From: an uncultured Gammaproteobacteria bacterium
Lineage (GTDB): Bacteria > Patescibacteriota > Patescibacteriia > Magasanikbacterales > GWA2-37-8
Assembly: GCA_964482695.1 (NCBI GenBank)
Contig: CAYZYP010000005.1
Location: forward strand, 1 to 59,173
DNA length: 59,173 nt
Direction of reading: 5' to 3'
Shown: positions 2,045 to 54,724 of the stretch, piece after piece
Layout: every line of letters starts with the position of its first letter
How positions within the stretch are numbered: the first letter of the stretch is position 1
The notes under the pieces: generated by a model
Told to the model about the DNA's origin: nothing
The model's database searches: none
What the model saw: only the letters and a program-made list of their open reading frames with translations
Program-made: the position numbers and the translations under genes

Positions 2045-2207
2045 CACAAAAGGCTACGTGTCTTCTGGCGATCCCTTGCGGAATCCAACAGCCTTTCGAC
2101 TGCTGACTACATGAATAATACCAGAGACGGCGTAGCCATCTCTATATTCATGTAGTATTTTCGACCATGCCCTATTTTTTAAGTAGGGTTTAGGTCTATA
2201 AATTGTT
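2045..2207 (-). ncRNA. Putative stand-alone structured sRNA
   Basis: TTGATT-N17-TAAGAT promoter (2242-2214); junction with GAAA and GCAA tetraloop hairpins closed by GGCTACG/CGTAGCC then a T-run; 12-bp complementarity 2106-2117/2145-2156. Confidence 0.5.
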
Positions 2208-3090: not shown

Positions 3091-3220
3091 AAATTCCCCC
3101 AAACAGTAGTCAAAATAAGGCTTAAATTAAATACTTCCACGACTTCCCCCATTTCTTCCCTGTAAGATGAGGGAAGTCTTTTTTTATACAATTACCGCAT
3201 AATTTTTGTGCGGTTTTTTT

Positions 3221-3373
3221 GTGTTTACATACCCCGAACAATTAAGGACGGAATGTAAAGCATTTTATAAAGAAATGTGTGATGTTGATATTTCCGACGA
3301 AACCGCCGACCAGTATTTAGACAGCTTTGCCGATCTTTATACTGGCATGAAAAATCTTTTAAGCGATGATTAA
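3221..3373 (+). CDS. Small 50-aa protein, possible recombination directionality factor (not in ORF track)
   Basis: GTG start, FTYPEQLRTECKAFYKEMCDVDISDETADQYLDSFADLY; weak similarity to 25945-26145. Confidence 0.5.
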   Translation: MFTYPEQLRTECKAFYKEMCDVDISDETADQYLDSFADLYTGMKNLLSDD

Positions 3374-3380
3374 CTTTTCT

Positions 3381-3544
3381 TTGGGTAAAGAGTATTTATT
3401 TTTTTTGGGAACGCCCGACAGGGCAGACCAAAAAAATAAATACTTTACCAAGGAAGTAATGGATTAAAGTTTTCTCGCCCTCGCCCAAACCTGCCCGATT
3501 TGGGCGAGGGCGAGAAACAACGCTTACTCATTAACTGGATTATA
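3381..3544 (+). other. Putative double-strand replication origin of element 1
   Basis: Two long hairpins (3381-3451, 3471-3519) then TAACTGGATTATA, paralleled by TAATCTTGATTATA upstream of the second Rep. Confidence 0.5.
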
Positions 3545-3592
3545 TGTACATATTTGGACGCAAAATTTCATTACTATTTTATTTCAATAATT

Positions 3593-4474
3593 ATGATTGA
3601 AGCTTATGATTTCAGAGTGATTGTTTCTGGTCGTGAGATCGAAACTTATCACTACAAAACTAAAAAAATATTTCGTGGGTTTACAAAGAAAAATAAGATT
3701 GAAGAAGTCGAGGCCGAGATATGCGAAAAAAGAGAAGAAAAAATCAGTCCCGAAGAATGGGCGGAAATTGTGGAAGACTGGGGTTGCGAAGAGGAAAAAG
3801 AAAAACTACACAAAGAGCAAGCCGAGGCGAAAGAAAAGCAAAACATAAAAACCCAATCGTCAATCTGTCGCACTAGGACAAACATCAGACGACTGACAAA
3901 CACCAACCCACACCTTAATAATTTTTTGACGCTCACCTTTGCCAAGTCTATGCCCAATCTCGAACCTGCCAATAATTTATTTCATTTGTTTATCAAACGC
4001 ATTACTCGTAAATATCCAAATTTTGAATACATCGCCGTCAATGAATTTCAAAAAGACACTTACTTTGACGGACGGATTAAGCCTGAGGGCGGATCTGTTC
4101 ATTATCATTTGCTTTGCAATTTGGGGGCAAAATATACCACCAAAGAAGAATTGTTTGCATGGGAAAGACGCTTTGCTTTGAAATATTGGCAAAATGGATT
4201 TATTAAGATTAAAGAAGTAAGCCAAATCACGAATATGGGGGCGTACTTTTGCAAGTATTTAGGCAAGGATATGTTTGATAAAAGAATGTTTAGAAAAAAG
4301 AAATTCTTTTGTTCTCGGACATTACAACGACCAGTTGAATTAACTGGCGATAAAGCAATCAGTTTTTTCAATCGGTTTGTGAAATCGACAAAACCGATCT
4401 TTGAAAAAACCTTTACTAGCGAATATGTGGGCGAAGTTGATTATTCTGCCTATACACTTGAAAAAATACCTTAA
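3593..4474 (+). CDS. HUH rolling-circle replication initiator (Rep)
   Basis: Motif I FLTLTF, motif II VHYHLL, motif III YFCKYLGK; start set at MIEAYDF by alignment with the second Rep. Confidence 0.85.
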   Translation: MIEAYDFRVIVSGREIETYHYKTKKIFRGFTKKNKIEEVEAEICEKREEKISPEEWAEIVEDWGCEEEKEKLHKEQAEAKEKQNIKTQSSICRTRTNIRRLTNTNPHLNNFLTLTFAKSMPNLEPANNLFHLFIKRITRKYPNFEYIAVNEFQKDTYFDGRIKPEGGSVHYHLLCNLGAKYTTKEELFAWERRFALKYWQNGFIKIKEVSQITNMGAYFCKYLGKDMFDKRMFRKKKFFCSRTLQRPVELTGDKAISFFNRFVKSTKPIFEKTFTSEYVGEVDYSAYTLEKIP

Positions 4475-4491
4475 TATGATACTATATGAAA

Positions 4492-4616
4492 GCTAAACCA
4501 ACACAATTTATATATCAGAAGATTTTATTATTTTTGTCCCCAAAAAGGGGCGGTTTCTGTCCGACAAAAATATCTTCTGATATTTGCGTTGGTTTAGCCA
4601 GAACCGTCCCTTTTTG
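4492..4616 (+). ncRNA. Conserved pseudoknotted leader RNA upstream of integrase, copy 1
   Basis: Nested stems plus loop-to-3' pairing, covarying with 26148-26274; TTGAAA..TG.TACTAT promoter just upstream. Confidence 0.75.
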
Positions 4617-4635
4617 TTTTTAATAATTTTAATAT

Positions 4636-6417
4636 ATGAAGTACATTTTGTATTGCAGAAAATCCAGCGAAGACAAAGGCAAACAAATTTTGTCTTTAGA
4701 GAGCCAAGTTACGGAAATGAAAAAGTTGGCCGTTAATTTAGGTTTGGAAATAATCCAAACATACACCGAAAGCAAATCAGCGAAGAAGCCCGACAACAGA
4801 CCGTTATTCTCGGAAATGGTTAAACAAATACAAAAAAACAAAGACGGTGATCTCGGTATTCTCTGTTGGAAAATAGATCGTCTATCCCGAAATCCGATTG
4901 ATAGTGCAACTATTCAATGGCTTTTGCAACAAGGAAATATTAAAATAATCCAAACGATTGATAGACAATATTTGCCCTCTGATAATGTTGTCTTGTTTAG
5001 CGTGGAAAGCGGAATGGCCAATCAGTATATTTTGGATTTATCCAAAAATGTTAAGCGTGGAATATTAACAAAGCTCGAAAAAGGCGGTTGGCCAAATTTA
5101 GCACCGCTCGGATATTTGAATGACGGCAAGGGCGGAATCGTTATTGATAAGGCAAGGATAAAATATATCAAGCAAATATTTACCCTCTACAAAGAGGGAA
5201 ACAAAAGCGTTAGAGATATTGCCGATATATTATTTAAGCAAGGTTTTAGAAGTCGGGCAGGTAATAAATATCACAAAAGCAAAGTCCACAAAATACTTAA
5301 CGATTCTTTTTATTGCGGAATAATGACCAAGAACGGCAAACAGTACTTAGGTAACCATGAGCCGACCATACCTAAAAAATTGTTTGATAGCGTTCAAGAA
5401 GTCTTAAACAAAAAAGCCAATACTAAAAAGCAAAAGTTGTATTTTACTTATCGAGGCGTATTAAAATGTGATACTTGTGGCTGTGTTTTGACGGCCACGA
5501 AAAAGAAAGGCAAACATACTTATTACTATTGCACCAACGGCAAAGGAAAATGCGACGAACACAAAGTATATTTAAAAGAAGACGATGTTAAAAAAGAACT
5601 AACTAATGTTTTTGATAATGTAATAATCAACAAGAAATTGATTGAAATGTGCTACCAAGCTGAAAAGGTAAAATTGGGCGAAAATGACAGCTATCTAACC
5701 CAAGCCAGTCAAACAATCGAAACTGCTCTTGCAAAGGCACAGGACAGGAAAAACAAGCTTTTAGACCTATACCTAGACGGCAATCTAACCAAGGAAGTGT
5801 ACGATCAAAAAGTTATTGTTCTTGATAATGAAATAATACAACTTAAAAAAGATTTAGACGAATTAAAACACAAAAAATCGAACAATAACGAAATTACTTT
5901 GGAACGGGTAAAAGACATCTTTTTATTCCCAATTAAAGCTAAAAAAGAATTTGCCGATAGAAAAAATGGCAAACAGGAAATTATTATAAAAACTTTACTT
6001 TGGAACGCTCAAATTAGAAACAAAAAAATCGCTCATCTTAGCTTTAAAGAACCATTTTTAAGGCTCTCTAAAATTGAAAATAAAAGCGATTTTTTATCAG
6101 TGCGGAGAGGGTGGGATTTGAACCCACGAGGGCTATTAACCCTACCGCTTTTCGAGAGCGGCACTTTCAACCACTCAGACACCTCTCCATTTATAATTCT
6201 TTTAAAGGCATTACCGGTTTATCCCGCCAAAAGCGGAACAAGCTCAGTTTACCCCGCCAAAAGCGGAACAAGCTCAGTTTCCCCCGCCATAGGCGGGGAC
6301 ACCTCTCCATTTTCACCATACTATATCGCAAAAACCCTAAAAAAACAAGTAAAAAGACCTGAAAGACAGGTCTTTGGTAAACCCCGCATTGTGGCGCGGA
6401 GAAAAATATTAAATTAG
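4636..6417 (+). CDS. Large serine recombinase (integrase); integrated form reads through antisense tRNA
   Basis: YCRKSS catalytic motif, KIDRLSRN, recombinase domain, CxxC..YYYC zinc ribbon, coiled coil; residues after about 490 derive from tRNA and repeats. Confidence 0.92.
   Translation: MKYILYCRKSSEDKGKQILSLESQVTEMKKLAVNLGLEIIQTYTESKSAKKPDNRPLFSEMVKQIQKNKDGDLGILCWKIDRLSRNPIDSATIQWLLQQGNIKIIQTIDRQYLPSDNVVLFSVESGMANQYILDLSKNVKRGILTKLEKGGWPNLAPLGYLNDGKGGIVIDKARIKYIKQIFTLYKEGNKSVRDIADILFKQGFRSRAGNKYHKSKVHKILNDSFYCGIMTKNGKQYLGNHEPTIPKKLFDSVQEVLNKKANTKKQKLYFTYRGVLKCDTCGCVLTATKKKGKHTYYYCTNGKGKCDEHKVYLKEDDVKKELTNVFDNVIINKKLIEMCYQAEKVKLGENDSYLTQASQTIETALAKAQDRKNKLLDLYLDGNLTKEVYDQKVIVLDNEIIQLKKDLDELKHKKSNNNEITLERVKDIFLFPIKAKKEFADRKNGKQEIIIKTLLWNAQIRNKKIAHLSFKEPFLRLSKIENKSDFLSVRRGWDLNPRGLLTLPLFESGTFNHSDTSPFIILLKALPVYPAKSGTSSVYPAKSGTSSVSPAIGGDTSPFSPYYIAKTLKKQVKRPERQVFGKPRIVARRKILN
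6103..6188 (-). tRNA. tRNA-Ser (CGA)
   Basis: GGAGAGG acceptor, loop CTCGAAA, long variable arm, GTTCAAATC; no encoded CCA in the integrated state. Confidence 0.95.
6217..6312. repeat. 30-bp tandem repeat (2 full units + 1 variant) followed by duplicated tRNA 5' end
   Basis: GTTTA(T/C)CCCGCCAAAAGCGGAACAAGCTCA at 6217 and 6247, variant at 6277; GACACCTCTCCATTT at 6178-6192 and 6298-6312. Confidence 0.85.
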
Positions 6418-19935: not shown

Positions 19936-20009
19936 TTGTAAGGGTGGGATTTGAACCCACATTCTCCCGGAGAAATGATTCCGGGCGCTTCGCCAATAGC
20001 GGCCTTACG
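19936..20009 (-). tRNA. Atypical tRNA-like gene with 8-nt anticodon loop containing CAT
   Basis: Acceptor CGTAAGG/CCTTACA, intact T arm GTGGG TTCAAAT CCCAC, stem CCCGGA/TCCGGG with loop ATCATTTC. Confidence 0.55.
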
Positions 20010-23560: not shown

Positions 23561-23809
23561 ATGTTTAATTTACTGGAAACAATCCTCGTCAAAGTGTTCT
23601 CGCTTTTGCCCGACGCCGATCCCAACAATTCTGTTATTGCGTCCGTCAACAGCGCCTTTGCCGTTATCACGCCGACCATAGCCAAGATAAATTTAATCTT
23701 TCCGGTTTACACTCTGTTTAAAATTCTCTTAATGGTTTTGTTTGTGGAAATGACAATTTTTCTTATCACCTTGGTCATTAAAATGGTGGCCTCATTCAAA
23801 CCCCTATGA
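23561..23809 (+). CDS. pVI-like minor coat protein
   Basis: Hydrophobic, N.IFPV motif, overlaps Zot start. Confidence 0.7.
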   Translation: MFNLLETILVKVFSLLPDADPNNSVIASVNSAFAVITPTIAKINLIFPVYTLFKILLMVLFVEMTIFLITLVIKMVASFKPL

Positions 23810-24522
23810 TTACCATTATCACCGGCAAACCCGGAGCCGGCAAAACATTGTTTATGACCGGCAAAGCTCTGGAAATGTTTTTGCAAGGGCAAGATGTTTA
23901 CGCCAATTGGAAGCTGGATTTTTCCGGCTATATCAAAAAGAAAAAATTAGATAAAAAAAAGACGAAATTAGGCAAAGTATATTTCTGGTCGGAAATTCCC
24001 GAACTGCTCCGCATTAAAGGCGGACAAATATTTATTGATGAAGCTCAAGGATATTTTGATTCACGAGAATGGCTGGAAATGCCTCCCTCAGCCAAACAAA
24101 AGTTTTCCGCGCACCGCCACGACATCAGACATGACGACGAGGGCAATATTATTCCTCTTGATGTTTGGGCAGGCGTTCAGCATATGAGCAATATTGATAA
24201 ACGAATTAGAGATTTAGGACAGCATTTTATAGAAGTGAGAAATGTTTTGCGTTTGTTTTTTATGACCTCATATTTTGAGCTTCATGATTTAAAAGACGAC
24301 ACCGTTAAACGCCAAGCGGTTAAAAGAAGTTTTTTTCTGTTCAGCAAGTTAAAGGCCAACTGCTACAACACGCACGAAGCTGTCAATTTTATTGAATATC
24401 CCGAATTTCCATATTACCGGCAATATGACAATGAATATTCCAACGACAACACCGGACTTATTCCCATATCCGATAATGTGCCCCCGTATCACAAACAGCC
24501 AAAAAGGGACCGGATTCGTTAG
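23806..24522 (+). CDS. Zot-like / pI morphogenesis ATPase
   Basis: ITGKPGAGKT Walker A at N-terminus, IFIDEAQ Walker B, HRH, Q...IDKRIR. Confidence 0.9.
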   Translation: MITIITGKPGAGKTLFMTGKALEMFLQGQDVYANWKLDFSGYIKKKKLDKKKTKLGKVYFWSEIPELLRIKGGQIFIDEAQGYFDSREWLEMPPSAKQKFSAHRHDIRHDDEGNIIPLDVWAGVQHMSNIDKRIRDLGQHFIEVRNVLRLFFMTSYFELHDLKDDTVKRQAVKRSFFLFSKLKANCYNTHEAVNFIEYPEFPYYRQYDNEYSNDNTGLIPISDNVPPYHKQPKRDRIR

Positions 24523-25039: not shown

Positions 25040-25142
25040 GCAAGCAAATTATTTTTTCGTCCGTCGTTGCTCGACGGCGAAAAAATAATGCTTGCGAGCA
25101 GAATTGAAGCGAAACGAAGCTTTATATCTAATCTTGATTATA
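25040..25142 (+). other. Putative double-strand origin of element 2
   Basis: Long hairpin 25040-25095 and TAATCTTGATTATA, similar to CTTGATA-type HUH nick sites. Confidence 0.5.
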
Positions 25143-25166
25143 TCCACACATCTAAAGAAAATTGTT

Positions 25167-25961
25167 ATGGCTTTTCCCTACAACATGAAAGTTGTGGTGT
25201 CGGGCAAACAGGTTGAAGTTTATAAATACACAAAGAGCGTCTGGCGGGACTTTGAAAGAACGCAAGCAAGCGTAGAAACCAAACTAATTAAAGAGCCAAA
25301 ACAATTGGACATATTTGAAAAAATTAAACAGCAAAAACAAAAACAAGAATTTTCGGTCAATCGGACACGAACAGAGATTCGCCGACTGATAAATTCAAAT
25401 CCGCAATTAAACAAATTTATGACTTTGACTTTTGCCGAGAACATCACGGATCTAAAACAAGCTAATTATGAATTTAATAAGTTTGTTTTGAGGTTATCTT
25501 ACAAATACCCTAATTTTGAATATCTGGCCGTGCCGGAATTTCAACAGCGTGGTGCAGTGCATTATCATGTCATTTGTAATTTGCCGTTTGTTCACTACAA
25601 TGAGATTTTTGAAACTTGGGGACAAGGCAAAATTGATATTAAGAAAGTCAAAGATGTTACTAATCTTGGTGCTTATGTCTGTAAGTATTTAGGCAAGGAT
25701 ATGTTTGATGAGCGAACTTTTGGAAAGAAAAAGTTTTTTCGTTCGCAAACATTATCCGAGGCAAAAGAATTTTTCGGTTACTTGGCTCAATTATTTGTTA
25801 AAAAGTTTCTCGCTTTTGCTACTCCGGTATTTGAAAAAGTTTTTAATTCCGAGTGGACGGGTGAAGTTACTTATCAAACATACACACTTGATAGTTTGCC
25901 GTTGATGAATGGCCTGTTTGAAAAATTATTTTTCAAAGGCCGATATGCAATTCAACGATGA
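25167..25961 (+). CDS. HUH rolling-circle replication initiator (Rep)
   Basis: FMTLTF, RGAVHYHV, YVCKYLGK; homolog of 3593-4474. Confidence 0.88.
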   Translation: MAFPYNMKVVVSGKQVEVYKYTKSVWRDFERTQASVETKLIKEPKQLDIFEKIKQQKQKQEFSVNRTRTEIRRLINSNPQLNKFMTLTFAENITDLKQANYEFNKFVLRLSYKYPNFEYLAVPEFQQRGAVHYHVICNLPFVHYNEIFETWGQGKIDIKKVKDVTNLGAYVCKYLGKDMFDERTFGKKKFFRSQTLSEAKEFFGYLAQLFVKKFLAFATPVFEKVFNSEWTGEVTYQTYTLDSLPLMNGLFEKLFFKGRYAIQR

Positions 25962-26145
25962 ACAATTAAAAAGTTTCATCGCTTTATACAAGCGAGAATT
26001 TGGCGAAGATATTGACCGAGCCGAGGCACAACGGCAAGCGTCGGCTCTTGTTTCGCTCGTAAAGATTACCTATAAACCGATGACGAGGAGTGAATATTTG
26101 AAAGTCATCGAACTTGCCAAATCTTTGGGGTATGGTAAAATATAA
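25945..26145 (+). CDS. Small helical protein, possible recombination directionality factor
   Basis: MQFNDEQLKSFIALYKREFGEDIDRAEA; between Rep and integrase. Confidence 0.6.
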   Translation: MQFNDEQLKSFIALYKREFGEDIDRAEAQRQASALVSLVKITYKPMTRSEYLKVIELAKSLGYGKI

Positions 26146-26147
26146 AC

Positions 26148-26274
26148 GCTTAACCAATACAACAAACACTCCGAGAGTTTTATTATTTTTGTCCCCAATA
26201 AGGGGCGGTTCATGTCCGACAAAAATTACTCTTTGGAGTAGTTGCGTTGGTTAAGCCATGACCGTCCCTTTTTG
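26148..26274 (+). ncRNA. Conserved pseudoknotted leader RNA upstream of integrase, copy 2
   Basis: Covaries with 4492-4616; TTGCCA..TG.TAAAAT promoter just upstream. Confidence 0.75.
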
Positions 26275-26285
26275 TTTATAATAAT

Positions 26286-27953
<1,668 letters not shown>

Positions 27954-51637: not shown

Positions 51638-51791
51638 ATAACTCTAATATTATATGTTACTTGAAAAAAAGTCCAATTAATGATATTCTCGTATAAACCC
51701 TTCCTTGTGACAGAGACCGAAGGGTATATAAACTCCTCGGCTCGGAAAAGCAAACTTGTTTGCTTTTCACTCACCTGCGTCGCTTATAAAT

Positions 51792-51863
51792 GGTACCGTG
51801 GCCAAGTGGTAAGGCGAAGCTCTGCAAAAGCTTTATTCGCCGGTTCGAATCCGGCCGGTACCT
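51792..51863 (+). tRNA. tRNA-Cys (GCA)
   Basis: GGTACCG/CGGTACC acceptor, loop CTGCAAA, U discriminator. Confidence 0.95.
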
Positions 51864-51868
51864 CACTT

Positions 51869-54724
51869 ATGGATAAACTCGTTATAATAGACGGTAACGC
51901 CATTATTCATCGCGCTTATCACGCCATACCACCGCTTACCGACAAAAATGGGCGGATGATTAACGCCGCGTATGGTTTTACTTCCATGCTACTTAAGGTG
52001 TGGCGCGACTTAAAGCCAACACATATCGTGGTTACTTTTGATATGGCTGGGCCGACTTTTCGGCATGAAAAATTTAAAGAATATAAAGCCACGCGGGTAA
52101 AAGCCGACCAAGAATTGTATGATCAAATTCCTTTGGTACACGATGTAGTGCGTGCTTTTAATATTCCGATTTACGAGAAAAAAGGTTACGAAGCGGACGA
52201 TGTGATTGGCACGATTGTAAGCTTGGTTTGTCATCCTGAGGGAGTAAAACGACCGAAGGATCTTTTGATACAAAGACACACCTTATCAGAAAGATCCTTC
52301 ACTGCGCTTCGCTCCGTTCAGGATGACAATTTGGTAATTTATATTGTTACCGGTGATATGGATACGTTGCAACTGGTTCAGCCAGGGGTAAAAGTATATA
52401 CTTTGCGCAAGGGGATGAGCGACGTGGTGATTTACGACGAAGAAGAAGTAAAAAAACGTTATGGTTTTGGTCCGGAAATGGTGGTAGATTACAAAGCTTT
52501 GCGCGGTGATGCTTCGGATAATATTCCTGGTGTTCTAGGGATTGGCGAAAAAACGGCGACAGAATTGATTAAAGAGATCGGGGGGGTAGATGAAATATAT
52601 AAACAAATCCGAAATCCGAAATCCGAAATCCGAAATAAATTGAAACAATCAGTTATAAAAAAATTAGAAGACGGAGAGAAAAGCGCTGAAATGAGCAAGG
52701 AATTAGCCACGTTGGATTGCAGTGTGCCGGAATTAAATTTTAAGTTGACAGATTGTCTAGCGCATGATTTTGACAAAGATAAAGTTATTAAAATATTTCA
52801 AGAACTTGAATTCGTGTCACTACTCAAAAGAGTGCCTGGGTTAGAGGCTCCAAACGCCAATAGCCAAATGTTAAAAGCCGAAGGCAAACGAGGCAAAAAG
52901 AGTTTGACCGAGTTTAAATTTAGCGAAATTAAAAAGTCGGATGAATTAGATGAAATAATTAAACTAATCGCAGAAAAAAAAGTGTTTGCCAGCAAGGCTA
53001 TTTTAAACAGCAAGGATGTTTTTAGCAGTGAATTATTGGGGATTGTTTTAGTGGTGGGGTACGAAGGTTTTTATGTTAGAAAAAATTTATTAGAAAAAAT
53101 TTTAACGGTTTTTGATGACAGTGAATTAGAAATGGTAGGCCACGATTTAAAACAAACCATTAAAATATTAAATATTAAGAATTCAGTTTTAGTTAAAAAT
53201 AAAATTTTTGACACTCAAATTGCCTCTTACTTACTTAACCCCGGCAGTAGAGCGCACGATCCAACCAGTATTGTTTTAAAATTTTTAGGCACCGAATTGC
53301 CAACTGGCAGTGGCCAGGAAAGTTTATTTGGTGTTGACGCGAGAGCAGTGGCCAATGAACTATATTTATTATTACAAACAGTTGAAAAACTTAAAAATGA
53401 GCTGGATAAAGCCAATAATTTGGGGTTATTTAGGCTTATAGAAATGCCACTAGCCCATGTTTTGGCGGAAATGGAATTAAACGGCGTGGCTGTTGATTTA
53501 AACATGTTAAATAAGTTATCAAAAGAGGTTGCCGAAGAAATTAAAAAGACAAGTAAAAATATTTATAATATGTCCGGCGAGGAGTTTAATATTGCCTCGC
53601 CTTTGCAATTGCGGGAAGTTCTTTTTGATAAAATGCAGATACCGGTTATGGGAATTAAAAAAGGTAAAACCGGTCTTTCTACTTCGGCCGAACAATTAGA
53701 AAAATTACGCGGTTTGCATCCGATTATTGATGAAATAGAAACTTATCGCGAACTGGCTAAATTGCAAAATACCTATATTGACGTTTTACCAACTTTGGTA
53801 AATAAAAAGACCAATCGCATTCATACTACTTTTAACCAAGCCGTGACAGCTACTGGCCGGCTATCTAGCTCTGATCCTAATTTACAAAATATTCCAATTC
53901 GCACCGAGCTTGGCCGAGAAATCAGAAAATCTTTTGTGGCGGAAAAAGGTAATAGTTTGGTGGTCGCTGACTATTCGCAAATAGAATTGAGAATTGTGGC
54001 TTCTCTGGCCAAAGATAAAAAGATGATGGAGATTTTTAATCAAGACAAAGACATTCACCAAGCTACAGCTGCTTTTATTAATGGCATTTCACTGGAAAAT
54101 GTGACCAAAGAAATGCGTAGTGCGGCCAAAGCGGTTAACTTTGGAGTCTTGTATGGTATGGGATCCTATGGTTTAAGCGGGCGGACCGGCATGCAGGTTT
54201 GGGAAGCCAAGGATTTTATTAAAAAATATTTTGAACAGTTTAGCGAGGTAAGAAAATATTTGGATCAGACTTTGGAATTTACCAAAAAAGAGGGCTACTG
54301 TGAAACACTATTTGGTCGTCGGCGTTATTTGCCGGAACTCAATTCACCGAATTTTCAAATTAGATCAGCGGCCGAGCGCATGGCCATAAATCATCCGGTA
54401 CAAGGCACGGCCGCGGATATTATGAAAATGGCGATGATTGAGGTTTATAAAAGTATTCACAATGTCATCCTGAGCGAAGCGAAGGATCTTTTCGTACAGA
54501 CGCGTCGTAGACAGAAAGATTCTTCGGCTTCGCCTCAGAATGACAATGTGGGTGAGGTAAAACTCATTCTTCAAGTTCACGACGAGTTGGTTTTAGAAGT
54601 TAAAAAGGGTTTAGAGAAAGAAGCTAGCGAAATGATCAAAAAAACAATGGAGGAAGTTGTCAAATTAAACGTGCCGGTGAAAGTAGAAGTAAATTGGGGA
54701 GAAAGATGGGGAGAGATAAAATGA
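51869..54724 (+). CDS. polA: DNA polymerase I (true start after tRNA-Cys)
   Basis: MDKLVIIDGNAIIHRAYHA, DYSQIELR, QVHDEL; carries in-frame repeat insertions. Confidence 0.96.
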   Translation: MDKLVIIDGNAIIHRAYHAIPPLTDKNGRMINAAYGFTSMLLKVWRDLKPTHIVVTFDMAGPTFRHEKFKEYKATRVKADQELYDQIPLVHDVVRAFNIPIYEKKGYEADDVIGTIVSLVCHPEGVKRPKDLLIQRHTLSERSFTALRSVQDDNLVIYIVTGDMDTLQLVQPGVKVYTLRKGMSDVVIYDEEEVKKRYGFGPEMVVDYKALRGDASDNIPGVLGIGEKTATELIKEIGGVDEIYKQIRNPKSEIRNKLKQSVIKKLEDGEKSAEMSKELATLDCSVPELNFKLTDCLAHDFDKDKVIKIFQELEFVSLLKRVPGLEAPNANSQMLKAEGKRGKKSLTEFKFSEIKKSDELDEIIKLIAEKKVFASKAILNSKDVFSSELLGIVLVVGYEGFYVRKNLLEKILTVFDDSELEMVGHDLKQTIKILNIKNSVLVKNKIFDTQIASYLLNPGSRAHDPTSIVLKFLGTELPTGSGQESLFGVDARAVANELYLLLQTVEKLKNELDKANNLGLFRLIEMPLAHVLAEMELNGVAVDLNMLNKLSKEVAEEIKKTSKNIYNMSGEEFNIASPLQLREVLFDKMQIPVMGIKKGKTGLSTSAEQLEKLRGLHPIIDEIETYRELAKLQNTYIDVLPTLVNKKTNRIHTTFNQAVTATGRLSSSDPNLQNIPIRTELGREIRKSFVAEKGNSLVVADYSQIELRIVASLAKDKKMMEIFNQDKDIHQATAAFINGISLENVTKEMRSAAKAVNFGVLYGMGSYGLSGRTGMQVWEAKDFIKKYFEQFSEVRKYLDQTLEFTKKEGYCETLFGRRRYLPELNSPNFQIRSAAERMAINHPVQGTAADIMKMAMIEVYKSIHNVILSEAKDLFVQTRRRQKDSSASPQNDNVGEVKLILQVHDELVLEVKKGLEKEASEMIKKTMEEVVKLNVPVKVEVNWGERWGEIK
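52228..52329. repeat. Palindromic element inserted in frame in polA (5' nuclease domain)
   Basis: TTGTCATCCTGA...TCAGGATGACAA; encodes CHPEGVKRPKDL...RSFTALRSVQDD. Confidence 0.85.
52605..52636 (+). repeat. Heptamer repeat (AAATCCG)4 in polA
   Basis: Encodes IRNPKSEIRN; related heptamer run at 50303-50344 in gatD. Confidence 0.8.
54463..54545. repeat. Second palindromic element inserted in frame in polA (polymerase domain)
   Basis: TGTCATCCTGAGCGAAGCGAAGGATCT...AGATTCTTCGGCTTCGCCTCAGAATGACA. Confidence 0.85.

What the first reader, a model, noticed from the sequence alone, without database searches (positions are those of the whole stretch)
4492..4616. Covarying pseudoknot RNA in front of both large serine recombinases
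Seen: the copies at 4492-4616 and 26148-26274 differ in sequence but keep all pairings. P1: GCTAAACCAAC/GTTGGTTTAGC vs GCTTAACCAAT/GTTGGTTAAGC. P2: ATATCAGAAGAT/ATCTTCTGATAT vs ACTCCGAGAGT/ACTCTTTGGAGT. P3: ATTTTTGTC/GACAAAAAT. The apical loop (AAGGGGCGGTTTCTG vs AAGGGGCGGTTCATG) pairs with the 3' tail (CAGAACCGTCCCTT vs CATGACCGTCCCTT) with compensatory changes. Each starts just after a promoter and ends in a T-run 11-19 nt before the ATG, although the upstream genes differ. Inference: an undescribed RNA motif that controls integrase expression or acts as an RNA cofactor; serine integrases are not known to use RNA.
Basis: partly seen in the sequence, partly recalled or inferred. Interest (0 to 1): 0.8.

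Follow-up and report, generated by a model that had tools for sequence, protein, structure and literature searches.

The report
Structured leader RNA before serine integrase genes
A roughly 130-base folded RNA with its own promoter sits directly in front of the integrase genes of small mobile elements in ultra-small (CPR/Patescibacteria) bacteria; it matches no catalogued RNA family and most likely decides whether the integrase is made.

Summary
Both copies (4490-4624, 26146-26282, + strand) fold as described. No Rfam 15 family matches them. Covariance models found relatives in 30 of 151 genomes sampled from the order, 16 of 151 from the class and 11 of 151 from the phylum, plus 6 IMG/VR contigs. 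On 50 distinct sequences 92% of pair cells are standard pairs (71% in shuffles) and 47 of 52 pairs show two-sided changes. The loop-tail helix, which the model did not contain, has two-sided changes in 13 of 17 pairs. G-U outnumbers A-C 209 to 38, so the sense strand folds. A sigma-70-type promoter ends 6 nt before P1 in 35 of 38 copies (2% at random sites). A large serine recombinase gene follows in 50 of 57 assessable copies. The elements are tRNA-integrated inovirus-like or other islands, so the RNA tracks the integrase, not the rolling-circle Rep. Best reading: a cis-acting leader with two states. The long hairpin leaves the tail free (integrase on). Loop-tail pairing makes a GC-rich helix plus U-run just before the ATG (off, by termination and/or blocked ribosome loading). 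The trigger is unknown. A guide or cofactor role is not supported: identical RNAs accompany integrases with different tRNA targets, and seven relatives precede other genes.

The parts
4458..4485 (+). Promoter of leader copy A: -35 TTGAAA, 16-nt spacer, extended -10 TGA-TACTAT. The -10 ends 6 nt before P1.
4490..4624 (+). Leader RNA copy A (full covariance-model match)
   Evidence: 177.6 bits with R1, 150.9 bits with R2
4492..4506 (+). P1 5' strand (4492-4502 plus the CAA extension 4504-4506). It pairs with 4584-4598.
4512..4522 (+). P2 5' strand; pairs with 4573-4583
4529..4538 (+). P3 5' strand; pairs with 4563-4572. Its 3' end GTCCCC can alternatively pair with GGGGC of the loop (mini-hairpin 4534-4553).
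4542..4559 (+). PKa: apical-loop segment AAAAAGGGGCGGTTTCTG
4563..4598 (+). 3' strands of P3 (4563-4572), P2 (4573-4583) and P1 (4584-4586, 4588-4598)
4599..4621 (+). PKb tail CAGAACCGTCCCTTTTT (4599-4615), pairing with PKa, then G and TTTTT: a terminator-like end
4636..6417 (+). Large serine recombinase A (Resolvase, Recombinase and Zn_ribbon_recom domains). Its 3' part runs antisense through tRNA-Ser.
6102..6188 (-). tRNA-Ser(CGA), the integration target of element A
3500..4474 (+). Rolling-circle Rep (REP_ORF2-G2P) upstream of copy A
26114..26141 (+). Promoter of leader copy B: TTGCCA, 16-nt spacer, TGG-TAAAAT
26146..26282 (+). Leader RNA copy B. P1 is 26148-26158 with 26246-26256; PKa 26197-26214; PKb 26257-26273.
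26286..27905 (+). Large serine recombinase B
27864..27953 (-). tRNA-Ser(TGA), the integration target of element B
25909..26145 (+). Small 3-helix protein (s78 family) directly upstream of copy B; a frequent neighbour of the leader
25092..25961 (+). Rolling-circle Rep of the inovirus-like prophage B (Zot/pI at 23806-24522)

Best explanation
This is a cis-acting 5' leader RNA of the integrase transcription unit of tRNA-targeting integrative elements in Patescibacteria. Transcription starts at the base of P1. The RNA can adopt two states. In the ON state the 5' and 3' halves zip into the long P1-P2-P3 hairpin. The 3' tail is then left single-stranded, RNA polymerase reads on, and the U/A-rich tail is free for ribosome loading. 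These hosts use no Shine-Dalgarno sequence. In the OFF state the G-rich segment in the apical loop (PKa) pairs with the tail (PKb). This gives a 12-17 bp GC-rich helix followed by a U-run 10-20 nt before the ATG. That helix would terminate transcription and/or bury the ribosome loading zone. P1 acts as the anti-terminator mainly by geometry: the tail starts 0 nt after P1, so a closed, straight hairpin keeps PKb away from PKa. SHOWN: the RNA-level pairings, the strand, the promoter position, the linkage to the integrase gene and the near-equal stability of the two folds. INFERRED: that the two folds alternate, that the PK state is the off state, and what flips the switch. Candidate triggers are the element's small s78/c45 protein, the integrase itself, an RNase III-type cut of the long hairpin, or folding kinetics.
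For: (1) Covariation. On 50 distinct sequences, 92.2% of cells are paired against 71.2% in shuffles. 47 of 52 pairs have two-sided changes, 0 of 500 shuffles reach the observed values, and slid controls give 38-52% (17 sequences). The PK helix was not in the covariance model, yet 13 of its 17 pairs show two-sided changes and 91.7% of its cells are paired. (2) Strand. There are 209 G-U cells against 38 A-C cells. (3) Promoter. 35 of 38 copies score 9 or more, with the -10 hexamer ending 6 nt before P1, against 2.2% of 5000 random anchors. (4) Linkage. An LSR gene follows in 26 of 38 order-level copies directly, in 3 after a 55-64 aa ORF and in 1 at +558, and in 20 of 20 class- and phylum-level loci. 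The first ATG lies 1-13 nt after the model end in most copies. (5) The upstream genes vary: Rep, s78, a terminase-small-subunit-like protein, an AAA_25 protein, or none. (6) Two-state energetics. In 36 of 38 copies PKa:PKb is 11-17 bp (-17 to -27 kcal/mol) and is followed by a U-run of 4 or more. The mean hairpin-state energy is -43.5 and the PK-enforced energy -40.6 kcal/mol. The PK state is the lower one in 12 of 36 and is the unconstrained MFE of the G043 copy. (7) Seven divergent 'type II' members carry an extra upstream strand that pairs with PKa in their MFE folds and resembles PKb. That is a classical three-strand terminator/antiterminator layout. (8) Host genes lack SD motifs (2 of 43 ORFs), so a free AU-rich leader is the likely ribosome entry site.
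Against: There are no expression data: no RNA run was listed, so start, end and read-through are untested. The arms of the putative terminator are about 40-50 nt apart, and the simple terminator scan does not call it. In the class- and phylum-level copies the T-run after PKb is 4 or more in only 13 of 20, exactly 3 in 6, and 2 in 1, so termination cannot be the whole story there. No trigger is identified, and few unpaired positions are conserved. In type II members the hairpin state is 10-20 kcal/mol more stable than the PK state. The strict 0-nt P1-to-PKb junction and the bulges confined to the 5' strand also fit a static fold in which P1 and PK stack coaxially. The CM-made alignments lean towards the modelled P1-P3 helices.
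Confidence: 0.55

Rival explanations
1. A static, compact pseudoknotted RNA. P1 and PK stack coaxially, P2-P3 fold back alongside them, and all helices form together. The RNA would act as a stable structural module: protection of the 5' end or mRNA stability, a binding platform for a protein such as s78, the integrase or a host factor, or a trans-acting small RNA released by termination.
For: The first PK pair directly follows the last P1 pair: 43 of 44 sequences with letters at both columns pair there. The promoter places the 5' end exactly at the P1 base. In the copies folded singly, both large internal loops are bulges on the 5' strand with a continuous 3' strand. A G-U pair inside PK is kept in 44 of 50 sequences and is G-C in 6. 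The leader is more conserved than the integrase: 100% identical RNA against 71% identical protein. A promoter plus a terminator-like end is the anatomy of a discrete small RNA.
Against: Type II members sequester PKa in a competing helix, which argues for alternation. The integrase ATG follows within 10-20 nt and has no promoter of its own, so the RNA must at least also be a leader.
Confidence: 0.22
2. A ligand- or tRNA-sensing riboswitch-like leader, in which a small molecule or an RNA stabilises one of the two folds.
For: It is a two-state leader with a terminator-like expression platform, and the GGGCRG/CYGYCC core is conserved.
Against: Almost all conserved positions are paired, and no conserved multi-nucleotide internal loop or junction could serve as a pocket. 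No Rfam riboswitch or T-box match appears even at E up to 10. The genes controlled are mobile-element genes rather than metabolic ones.
Confidence: 0.07
3. An ssDNA structure of a rolling-circle or filamentous-phage replicon (minus-strand origin, packaging signal or nick region) rather than an RNA.
For: In the window both copies lie in the Rep-to-int intergenic region of inovirus-like/rolling-circle elements. All six IMG/VR contigs with a model match have the Zot-Rep-leader-int order. The hairpin is long and imperfect, like Ff intergenic hairpins. The tail GTTTTTAAT weakly resembles the M13 nick region gttctttaatagt (the nick position itself is recalled).
Against: The element also occurs where no Rep homologue was found upstream: G034 and G136a (s78 only or nothing), G012a/b, G022 and G059b, whose neighbours include a terminase-like protein and an AAA_25 protein. 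Only 1 of the 20 class- and phylum-level loci has a Rep hit upstream. A dsDNA promoter sits at a fixed 6-nt distance in 35 of 38 copies. The many G-U pairs (209 cells) would be G-T mismatches in DNA. The element follows the integrase, not Rep.
Confidence: 0.04
4. An RNA guide or cofactor of the serine recombinase, analogous to the IS110 bridge RNA, that helps choose or synapse att sites.
For: The RNA is encoded immediately 5' of the recombinase gene, is structured, and has variable helices.
Against: Identical leaders go with different targets: G018 at tRNA-Asp against G034 at tRNA-Ser(GGA), and G000 copy A at tRNA-Ser(CGA) against G059a at tRNA-Ser(GGA). The leader shares no meaningful exact match of 9 nt or more with the rest of either element or with the tRNA junctions. 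Seven relatives precede other genes, including two Cas12a-like REC1 proteins. Many related recombinases lack it.
Confidence: 0.04
5. DNA-level inverted repeats that bind a protein (an operator or recombination site), with no role for a transcript.
For: P1 is fairly conserved in sequence across the phylum (GTTGACCCA ... TGGGTCAAC) and lies just downstream of a promoter.
Against: 47 of 52 pairs covary with free choice of sequence in P2 and P3, and the G-U to A-C asymmetry is 5.5 to 1. The att site lies at the other end of the int gene, overlapping the tRNA.
Confidence: 0.03

Closest known systems
Terminator/antiterminator leader RNAs (expression platforms of riboswitches, T-box and protein-controlled attenuators; named from general knowledge; abstract-level listing of reviews)
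   Same: A promoter-proximal 5' leader. It has two competing folds of similar stability. One of them is a GC-rich helix plus U-run just before the regulated gene. Type II members have the classical three-strand competition.
   Different: No sensor domain or ligand is evident. In type I the antiterminator does not share nucleotides with the terminator; it excludes it by geometry, because the terminator arms lie in the apical loop and directly after P1. The terminator loop would be 40-50 nt. No Rfam family matches.
Phage lambda int retroregulation by sib/tI (recalled, not checked in a paper here)
   Same: Integrase expression of a temperate element is set post-initiation by an RNA structure that can be either a terminator or a long, RNase III-type hairpin.
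   Different: sib lies downstream of int and depends on which promoter made the transcript. Here the structure is upstream, has its own promoter, and controls a serine rather than a tyrosine integrase.
P4 CI / P1-P7 c4 immunity RNAs (Rfam C4; recalled, and named in earlier scan notes)
   Same: A mobile-element leader in which an exposed loop is complementary to a downstream stretch of the same leader, and the pairing causes premature termination.
   Different: No match to C4 or any other Rfam family at E up to 10. There is no evidence of processing or of action in trans, and the architecture is different.
LOOT RNA (Rfam RF03000)
   Same: An orphan structured RNA of Patescibacteria mobile islands. 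One copy lies in the same window at 2070-2196(-), next to element A.
   Different: LOOT is a series of four hairpins. The integrase leader does not match the LOOT model.
Ff (M13/f1) intergenic hairpins: packaging signal and minus-strand origin
   Same: A long imperfect hairpin in the non-coding stretch next to the gene II-type Rep of an inovirus-like genome.
   Different: The leader is also present in elements without a Rep homologue. It has a fixed dsDNA promoter and many G-U pairs.

Membership tests
Any Rfam 15 family | Covariance-model score at or above the family's gathering threshold | tested here: not met
   The window scan at gathering thresholds gives only LOOT and tRNAs elsewhere. Permissive scans of both copies give only sub-threshold chance hits: at most 21 bits against thresholds of 41-229.
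LOOT RNA (RF03000) | Match to the four-hairpin LOOT model | tested here: not met
   LOOT matches 2070-2196(-) with 81.8 bits but does not match 4490-4624 or 26146-26282.
Intrinsic (rho-independent) terminator | GC-rich stem directly followed by a U-run | tested here: met
   PKa:PKb is 11-17 bp and is followed by U4 or more in 36 of 38 order-level copies. The feature is weaker in distant copies: a T-run of 4 or more in 13 of 20.
Intrinsic (rho-independent) terminator | Compact hairpin (loop of a few nucleotides) | tested here: not met
   The two arms are separated by about 40-50 nt (the 3' strands of P3, P2 and P1). The consensus terminator scan does not report it.
Terminator/antiterminator attenuator | Two mutually exclusive folds, one of them the terminator | tested here: inconclusive
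   The two folds have similar energies, and type II members have a strand that competes for PKa. In type I the exclusion rests on a steric argument only.
Terminator/antiterminator attenuator | Regulated read-through into the downstream gene | not testable with these tools
H-type pseudoknot | A hairpin loop pairs with sequence 3' of the hairpin, supported by covariation | tested here: met
   13 of 17 PK pairs have two-sided changes and 91.7% of cells are paired on 50 sequences. The helix was not part of the model used for alignment.
H-type pseudoknot | Both helices present in the same molecule at the same time | not testable with these tools
   This needs probing or 3D modelling. Geometry (a 0-nt linker and a stack of about 35 bp) forbids the classical form and allows only a folded-back form (inference).
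Single-strand origin / Ff packaging signal (ssDNA structure) | Obligatory association with a rolling-circle replicon | tested here: not met
   No Rep homologue lies upstream in 6 of the 21 mapped loci (G034, G136a, G012a, G012b, G022, G059b). Only 1 of the 20 class- and phylum-level loci has a Rep hit.
Recombinase guide RNA (IS110 bridge RNA type) | The RNA sequence covaries with, or is complementary to, the target or donor site | tested here: not met
   Identical RNAs accompany different tRNA targets. No complementarity to the element ends was found.

The most novel reading that the evidence does not exclude
The leader is not a simple attenuator but a compact folded RNA: P1 and the loop-tail helix stack coaxially at the RNA's own 5' end, and P2-P3 pack alongside. 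This RNA is read by an element protein, either the 3-helix s78/c45 protein or the serine integrase itself. RNA folding would then set when the integrase is made and so the direction (integration or excision) of a serine recombinase system. That would be a kind of control not described for serine integrases. The same module has been borrowed to gate Cas12a-like and other island genes.
Probability: 0.1. Interest if true: 0.85.

Novelty: new variant of a known kind. Interest (0 to 1): 0.6.

Why it matters
Large serine integrases are prized genome-engineering tools, but how their natural expression is controlled is poorly known, and CPR/Patescibacteria regulation is almost unexplored. This work defines a well-supported RNA family absent from Rfam 15 and not found in the literature searches run here. 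Its boundaries, promoter and two testable folds are clear. It occurs in roughly 7-20% of sampled genomes, from one order up to the phylum. It marks the integrase end of a very large class of tRNA-targeting mobile elements, including CPR inoviruses, so it can be used to find and delimit them. The antiterminator appears to work through helix geometry rather than shared nucleotides. If that is confirmed, it would be an unusual design for an RNA switch.

Tried and rejected
1. RNA-seq evidence: the look-up of sequencing runs listed no RNA holder.

2. ssDNA-origin idea: I fetched the M13 intergenic region. Only a short AT-rich resemblance to the nick region appeared, and the distribution argues against the idea.

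3. Guide-RNA idea: rejected, because identical RNAs go with different targets and no complementarity was found.

4. MAFFT alignments (A1-A3) mis-register P2 and P3, so RNAalifold found only P1. I replaced them with covariance-model alignments.

5. My first constrained-fold script for the PK state did not enforce the pairs. It was redone. The order-level T-run count used a faulty anchor and is not used; one search is used instead.

6. Small neighbouring protein s78/c45/s55: no Pfam or PHROG hit. The ESM Atlas gave only unnamed clusters below 0.9. The AF2 model is a confident 3-helix fold (pLDDT 89), but no PDB fold match reached E 0.001 or better. Its function stays unknown.

7. The roughly 200-aa proteins upstream of distant copies have no Pfam hit.

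8. Literature: searches for LOOT, for serine recombinase plus RNA motif plus CPR, for Patescibacteria structured RNA, and for LSR leader or antitermination found no description of this motif. In PMC5737381 I read passages only: it does not mention recombinases, and its four integrase mentions concern integrons and references. In PMC6813254 I read passages only: it reports CPR inoviruses and serine recombinases but no RNA. Supplementary tables of these papers were not seen and could list a similar motif.

9. Two slips: structure string one character too long, corrected; illegal search term, replaced.

Full report
OBSERVATION. They are 88% identical over 138 columns, although the large serine recombinases (LSRs) that follow share only 30% of residues. 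Each folds on its own into a long hairpin. Copy A has an MFE of -44.9 kcal/mol (z -7.9) and copy B -41.4 kcal/mol (z -4.8). None of 200 dinucleotide shuffles folds as well in either case. The apical-loop segment and the 3' tail are complementary: 17 bp in A and 14 bp in B. Promoter-like sites with an extended -10 end at 4485 and 26141. T-runs follow the tail, and the ATGs lie at 4636 and 26286. Neither copy matches any of the 4227 Rfam 15 families, at gathering thresholds or at E up to 10.

CONTEXT IN THE WINDOW. Both copies lie inside integrated mobile elements.
- Copy A is preceded by a REP_ORF2-G2P rolling-circle Rep (3500-4474).
- Copy B is preceded by Zot/pI (23806-24522), a Rep (25092-25961) and a 78-aa protein. 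This is an inovirus-like prophage of about 8 kb.
- Both LSR genes run, at their 3' ends, antisense through a tRNA-Ser gene (6102-6188 and 27864-27953).
- A partial tRNA-like repeat at about 19941 marks the far end of element B.

This context raised a serious rival: the hairpin could be an ssDNA origin or packaging signal of a filamentous phage.

RELATIVES.
- The 1.15-Mb genome holds only these two copies.
- BLAST found relatives at 70-81% identity in sister genera.
- A covariance model built from copy A (R1) found matches in 16 of 100 genomes of the family.
- A second model (R2, built from 18 aligned copies) found matches in 30 of 151 genomes sampled from the order, 16 of 151 from the class and 11 of 151 from the phylum. 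Each count includes the window's own genome.
- A two-part DNA pattern found 7 IMG/VR contigs. Six of them hold a full model match.
- Record titles of related LSR loci name Patescibacteria lineages, including Magasanikiibacteriota, Falkowbacteria, Nomurabacteria, Paceibacterota and Moraniibacteriota.

STRUCTURE IS REAL AND IS RNA.
- The first eight distinct copies each fold alone into the same P1/P2/P3 architecture.
- On 17 distinct sequences, 93.7% of pair cells are standard pairs, against 76.5% in shuffles.
- On 50 distinct sequences the figures are 92.2% against 71.2%. 47 of 52 pairs carry two-sided changes, the covariation score is 0.559 against 0.195, 0 of 500 shuffles reach the observed values, and slid controls give 38-52% paired.
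- Caveat: these alignments were fitted to the P1-P3 model.
- The loop-tail helix could not be part of the model, so its support is independent. 13 of its 17 pairs have two-sided changes (for example column pair 99:176, G-C 37 and A-U 13), and 91.7% of its cells are paired.
- G-U pairs outnumber A-C mismatches 209 to 38 overall, and 110 to 12 in the loop-tail helix. The sense strand is therefore the one that folds. So many wobble pairs fit RNA better than ssDNA.
- A sigma-70-type promoter scoring 9 or more is present in 35 of 38 copies, and its -10 hexamer almost always ends exactly 6 nt before the first P1 nucleotide. Only 2.2% of 5000 random anchors in the same loci score as high. The transcript therefore starts at the base of P1.

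LINKAGE.
- In all 20 of the 21 mapped loci that have downstream sequence, an LSR gene follows: directly in 18, and after a 60-73 aa ORF in 2. In 18 of those 20, a tRNA gene on the opposite strand was found at its 3' end (Ser, Gln, Asp, Asn, Gly or Glu); none was found in G132 and G012b.
- Of the 38 order-level copies, 26 have the LSR directly downstream, 3 have it after a small ORF, 1 has it at +558, 1 is cut by a contig end, and 7 precede other genes.
- All 20 class- and phylum-level loci have an LSR downstream.
- In total, 50 of 57 assessable copies are followed by an LSR gene.
- The upstream genes vary: a Rep; only the small s78 protein (G136a); nothing on that strand (G034); or unrelated proteins, including a Terminase_2-like protein (G012a) and, two ORFs upstream, an AAA_25 protein (G059b). 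Only 1 of the 20 distant loci has a Rep hit upstream.
- The RNA therefore travels with the integrase, not with the rolling-circle replicon. This, together with the promoter and the G-U pairs, makes the ssDNA reading unlikely.
- In the reverse direction, 80 LSR loci were fetched by protein similarity. 26 of them carry the leader upstream and 3 have no upstream DNA. The others have different conserved or structured upstream sequences. This leader thus characterises sub-clades of the integrase family, not all of it.

NOT A GUIDE.
- The G018 and G034 leaders are identical. Their integrases are 71% identical, and the elements sit at tRNA-Asp and tRNA-Ser(GGA).
- Copy A and its twin in G059 are identical over the 135-nt element, yet their elements sit at tRNA-Ser(CGA) and tRNA-Ser(GGA).
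- The leader shares no meaningful exact match of 9 nt or more with the rest of either element or with the tRNA junctions.

HOW IT MOST LIKELY WORKS.
- The tail (PKb) starts 0 nt after P1, and PKa sits in the apical loop at the far end of a stack of about 35 bp. A straight hairpin and the loop-tail helix therefore cannot coexist (inference from geometry).
- The loop-tail helix is 11-17 bp (-17 to -27 kcal/mol) and is followed by a U-run of 4 or more in 36 of 38 order-level copies.
- The two folds are close in energy (means -43.5 and -40.6 kcal/mol). The PK fold is the lower one in 12 of 36 copies and is the plain MFE of the G043 copy.
- Seven divergent 'type II' members add an upstream strand that resembles PKb and pairs with PKa in their MFE folds. 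This is the textbook terminator/antiterminator triad.
- In type I the 3' end of P3a (GUCCCC) can form a similar mini-hairpin with PKa.
- The integrase ATG lies 10-20 nt after the U-run with no room for another promoter, and host genes here lack Shine-Dalgarno motifs (2 of 43).

I therefore read the hairpin state as ON: the tail is free, the polymerase reads through and the ribosome can load. I read the loop-tail state as OFF: termination and/or occlusion of the loading zone.

WHAT COUNTS AGAINST THIS.
- The terminator arms are 40-50 nt apart.
- In distant copies the T-run shrinks: 4 or more in 13 of 20, exactly 3 in 6, and 2 in 1.
- Type II hairpin states are 10-20 kcal/mol more stable than their PK states.
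- No trigger is known.
- No expression data exist; no RNA run was listed.
- A static fold in which P1 and PK stack coaxially at the RNA's 5' end, with P2-P3 folded back, is geometrically possible. It fits the invariant 0-nt junction, the fixed transcription start and the 5'-strand bulges. I keep it as the main rival.

COMPARISON WITH KNOWN SYSTEMS.
- It works like a terminator/antiterminator leader but belongs to no catalogued family.
- It is not LOOT, which has four serial hairpins and occurs separately at 2070-2196(-).
- Recalled analogies are lambda sib/tI retroregulation of int and the P4 CI and P1 c4 leader-derived RNAs. None was tested as a family beyond the negative Rfam scan.
- Four literature searches found no description of the motif. 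Passages of PMC5737381 and PMC6813254 do not mention it. Supplements were not visible.
- Earlier scan notes describe the same family of tRNA-end-targeting serine-integrase elements in CPR bacteria, and other leader RNAs on them. Several of those windows share short words with a leader copy, but no note describes this RNA.

VERDICT. This is a real, widespread and apparently undescribed structured leader RNA of serine-integrase genes in Patescibacteria mobile elements. The 'expression control' reading is supported as most likely (0.55). The 'RNA cofactor' reading is not supported. Novelty: a new variant of a known kind. Interest: 0.6.

Noticed in passing
window 2070-2196 (-): A full-length LOOT RNA (RF03000, 81.8 bits) lies at the left side of element A, transcribed away from the element's + strand genes and towards the ORFs at 1527-1976 and 793-1503. 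The same arrangement recurs in G021, where the equivalent 'ORF' cluster c53 sits next to the 235-aa protein of cluster c50.
   Followed up: partly
window 6050-6417 and 27800-27953: Both integrase ORFs read antisense through the 3' part of a tRNA-Ser gene, and the two proteins align up to ...RRGWD(L/S)NPR. ORF A then continues about 95 codons past the alignment, across the tRNA. The att site therefore seems to lie inside the end of the integrase gene, as earlier scan notes say for this family.
   Followed up: partly
window 19936-20009 (-) and about 19941: A weak tRNA-like match (31.8 bits) next to tRNA-Met shares an 11-mer with tRNA-Ser at 27872. It is probably the attL remnant that bounds the 8-kb inovirus-like prophage B. 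No such repeat was found for element A.
   Followed up: partly
L078 (G030) and L080 (G157), downstream of the leader-like element: Two divergent 'type II' members of the leader family precede ORFs of 493 aa or more (cut by the locus end) that match Pfam REC1 (PF18501; E 3.5e-22 and 3.9e-30). I recall this as the Cas12a recognition lobe. Other type II members precede a DUF4352 protein, an operon with an M78/IrrE-type peptidase, or a gene followed by a ParB-like protein.
   Followed up: partly
window 25909-26145 and 3206-3373; L021, L022, L024, L026, L050, L052, L055, L056: The 50-78 aa proteins flanking the leader (clusters s78, c45 and s55) form one family. The predicted fold is three helices (pLDDT 89). 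There is no Pfam, PHROG or PDB match. In some elements one copy lies on each side of the leader. It is a candidate regulator or recombination directionality factor.
   Followed up: partly
L183, L184, L137, L171, L135, L139-L143, L147, L149 (upstream of related recombinase genes): Related serine recombinase genes that lack this leader carry other conserved or palindromic upstream sequences. Examples are AAATGGCCGTC...GGGACGGCCATTT in L183 and L184, and a shared TATATAATTAACTTGACTATACGCACACAC block in most of the loci titled Falkowbacteria or placed with them. Further leader types may exist.
   Followed up: no
window, all ORFs of 150 aa or more: Only 2 of 43 long ORFs have a Shine-Dalgarno-like 4-mer at -20 to -5, so this organism appears to initiate translation without SD pairing.
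   Followed up: partly
window 51792-51864 (+): The tRNA-Cys gene lies inside the mechanically listed 1014-aa ORF 51680-54724. The true start of that gene is probably downstream of the tRNA.
   Followed up: no
L088, L090, L097, L100, L101, L103, L105 (upstream of distant leader copies): A protein of about 195-203 aa with no Pfam hit lies directly upstream of the leader in many class- and phylum-level loci. This suggests a different, conserved element backbone there.
   Followed up: partly
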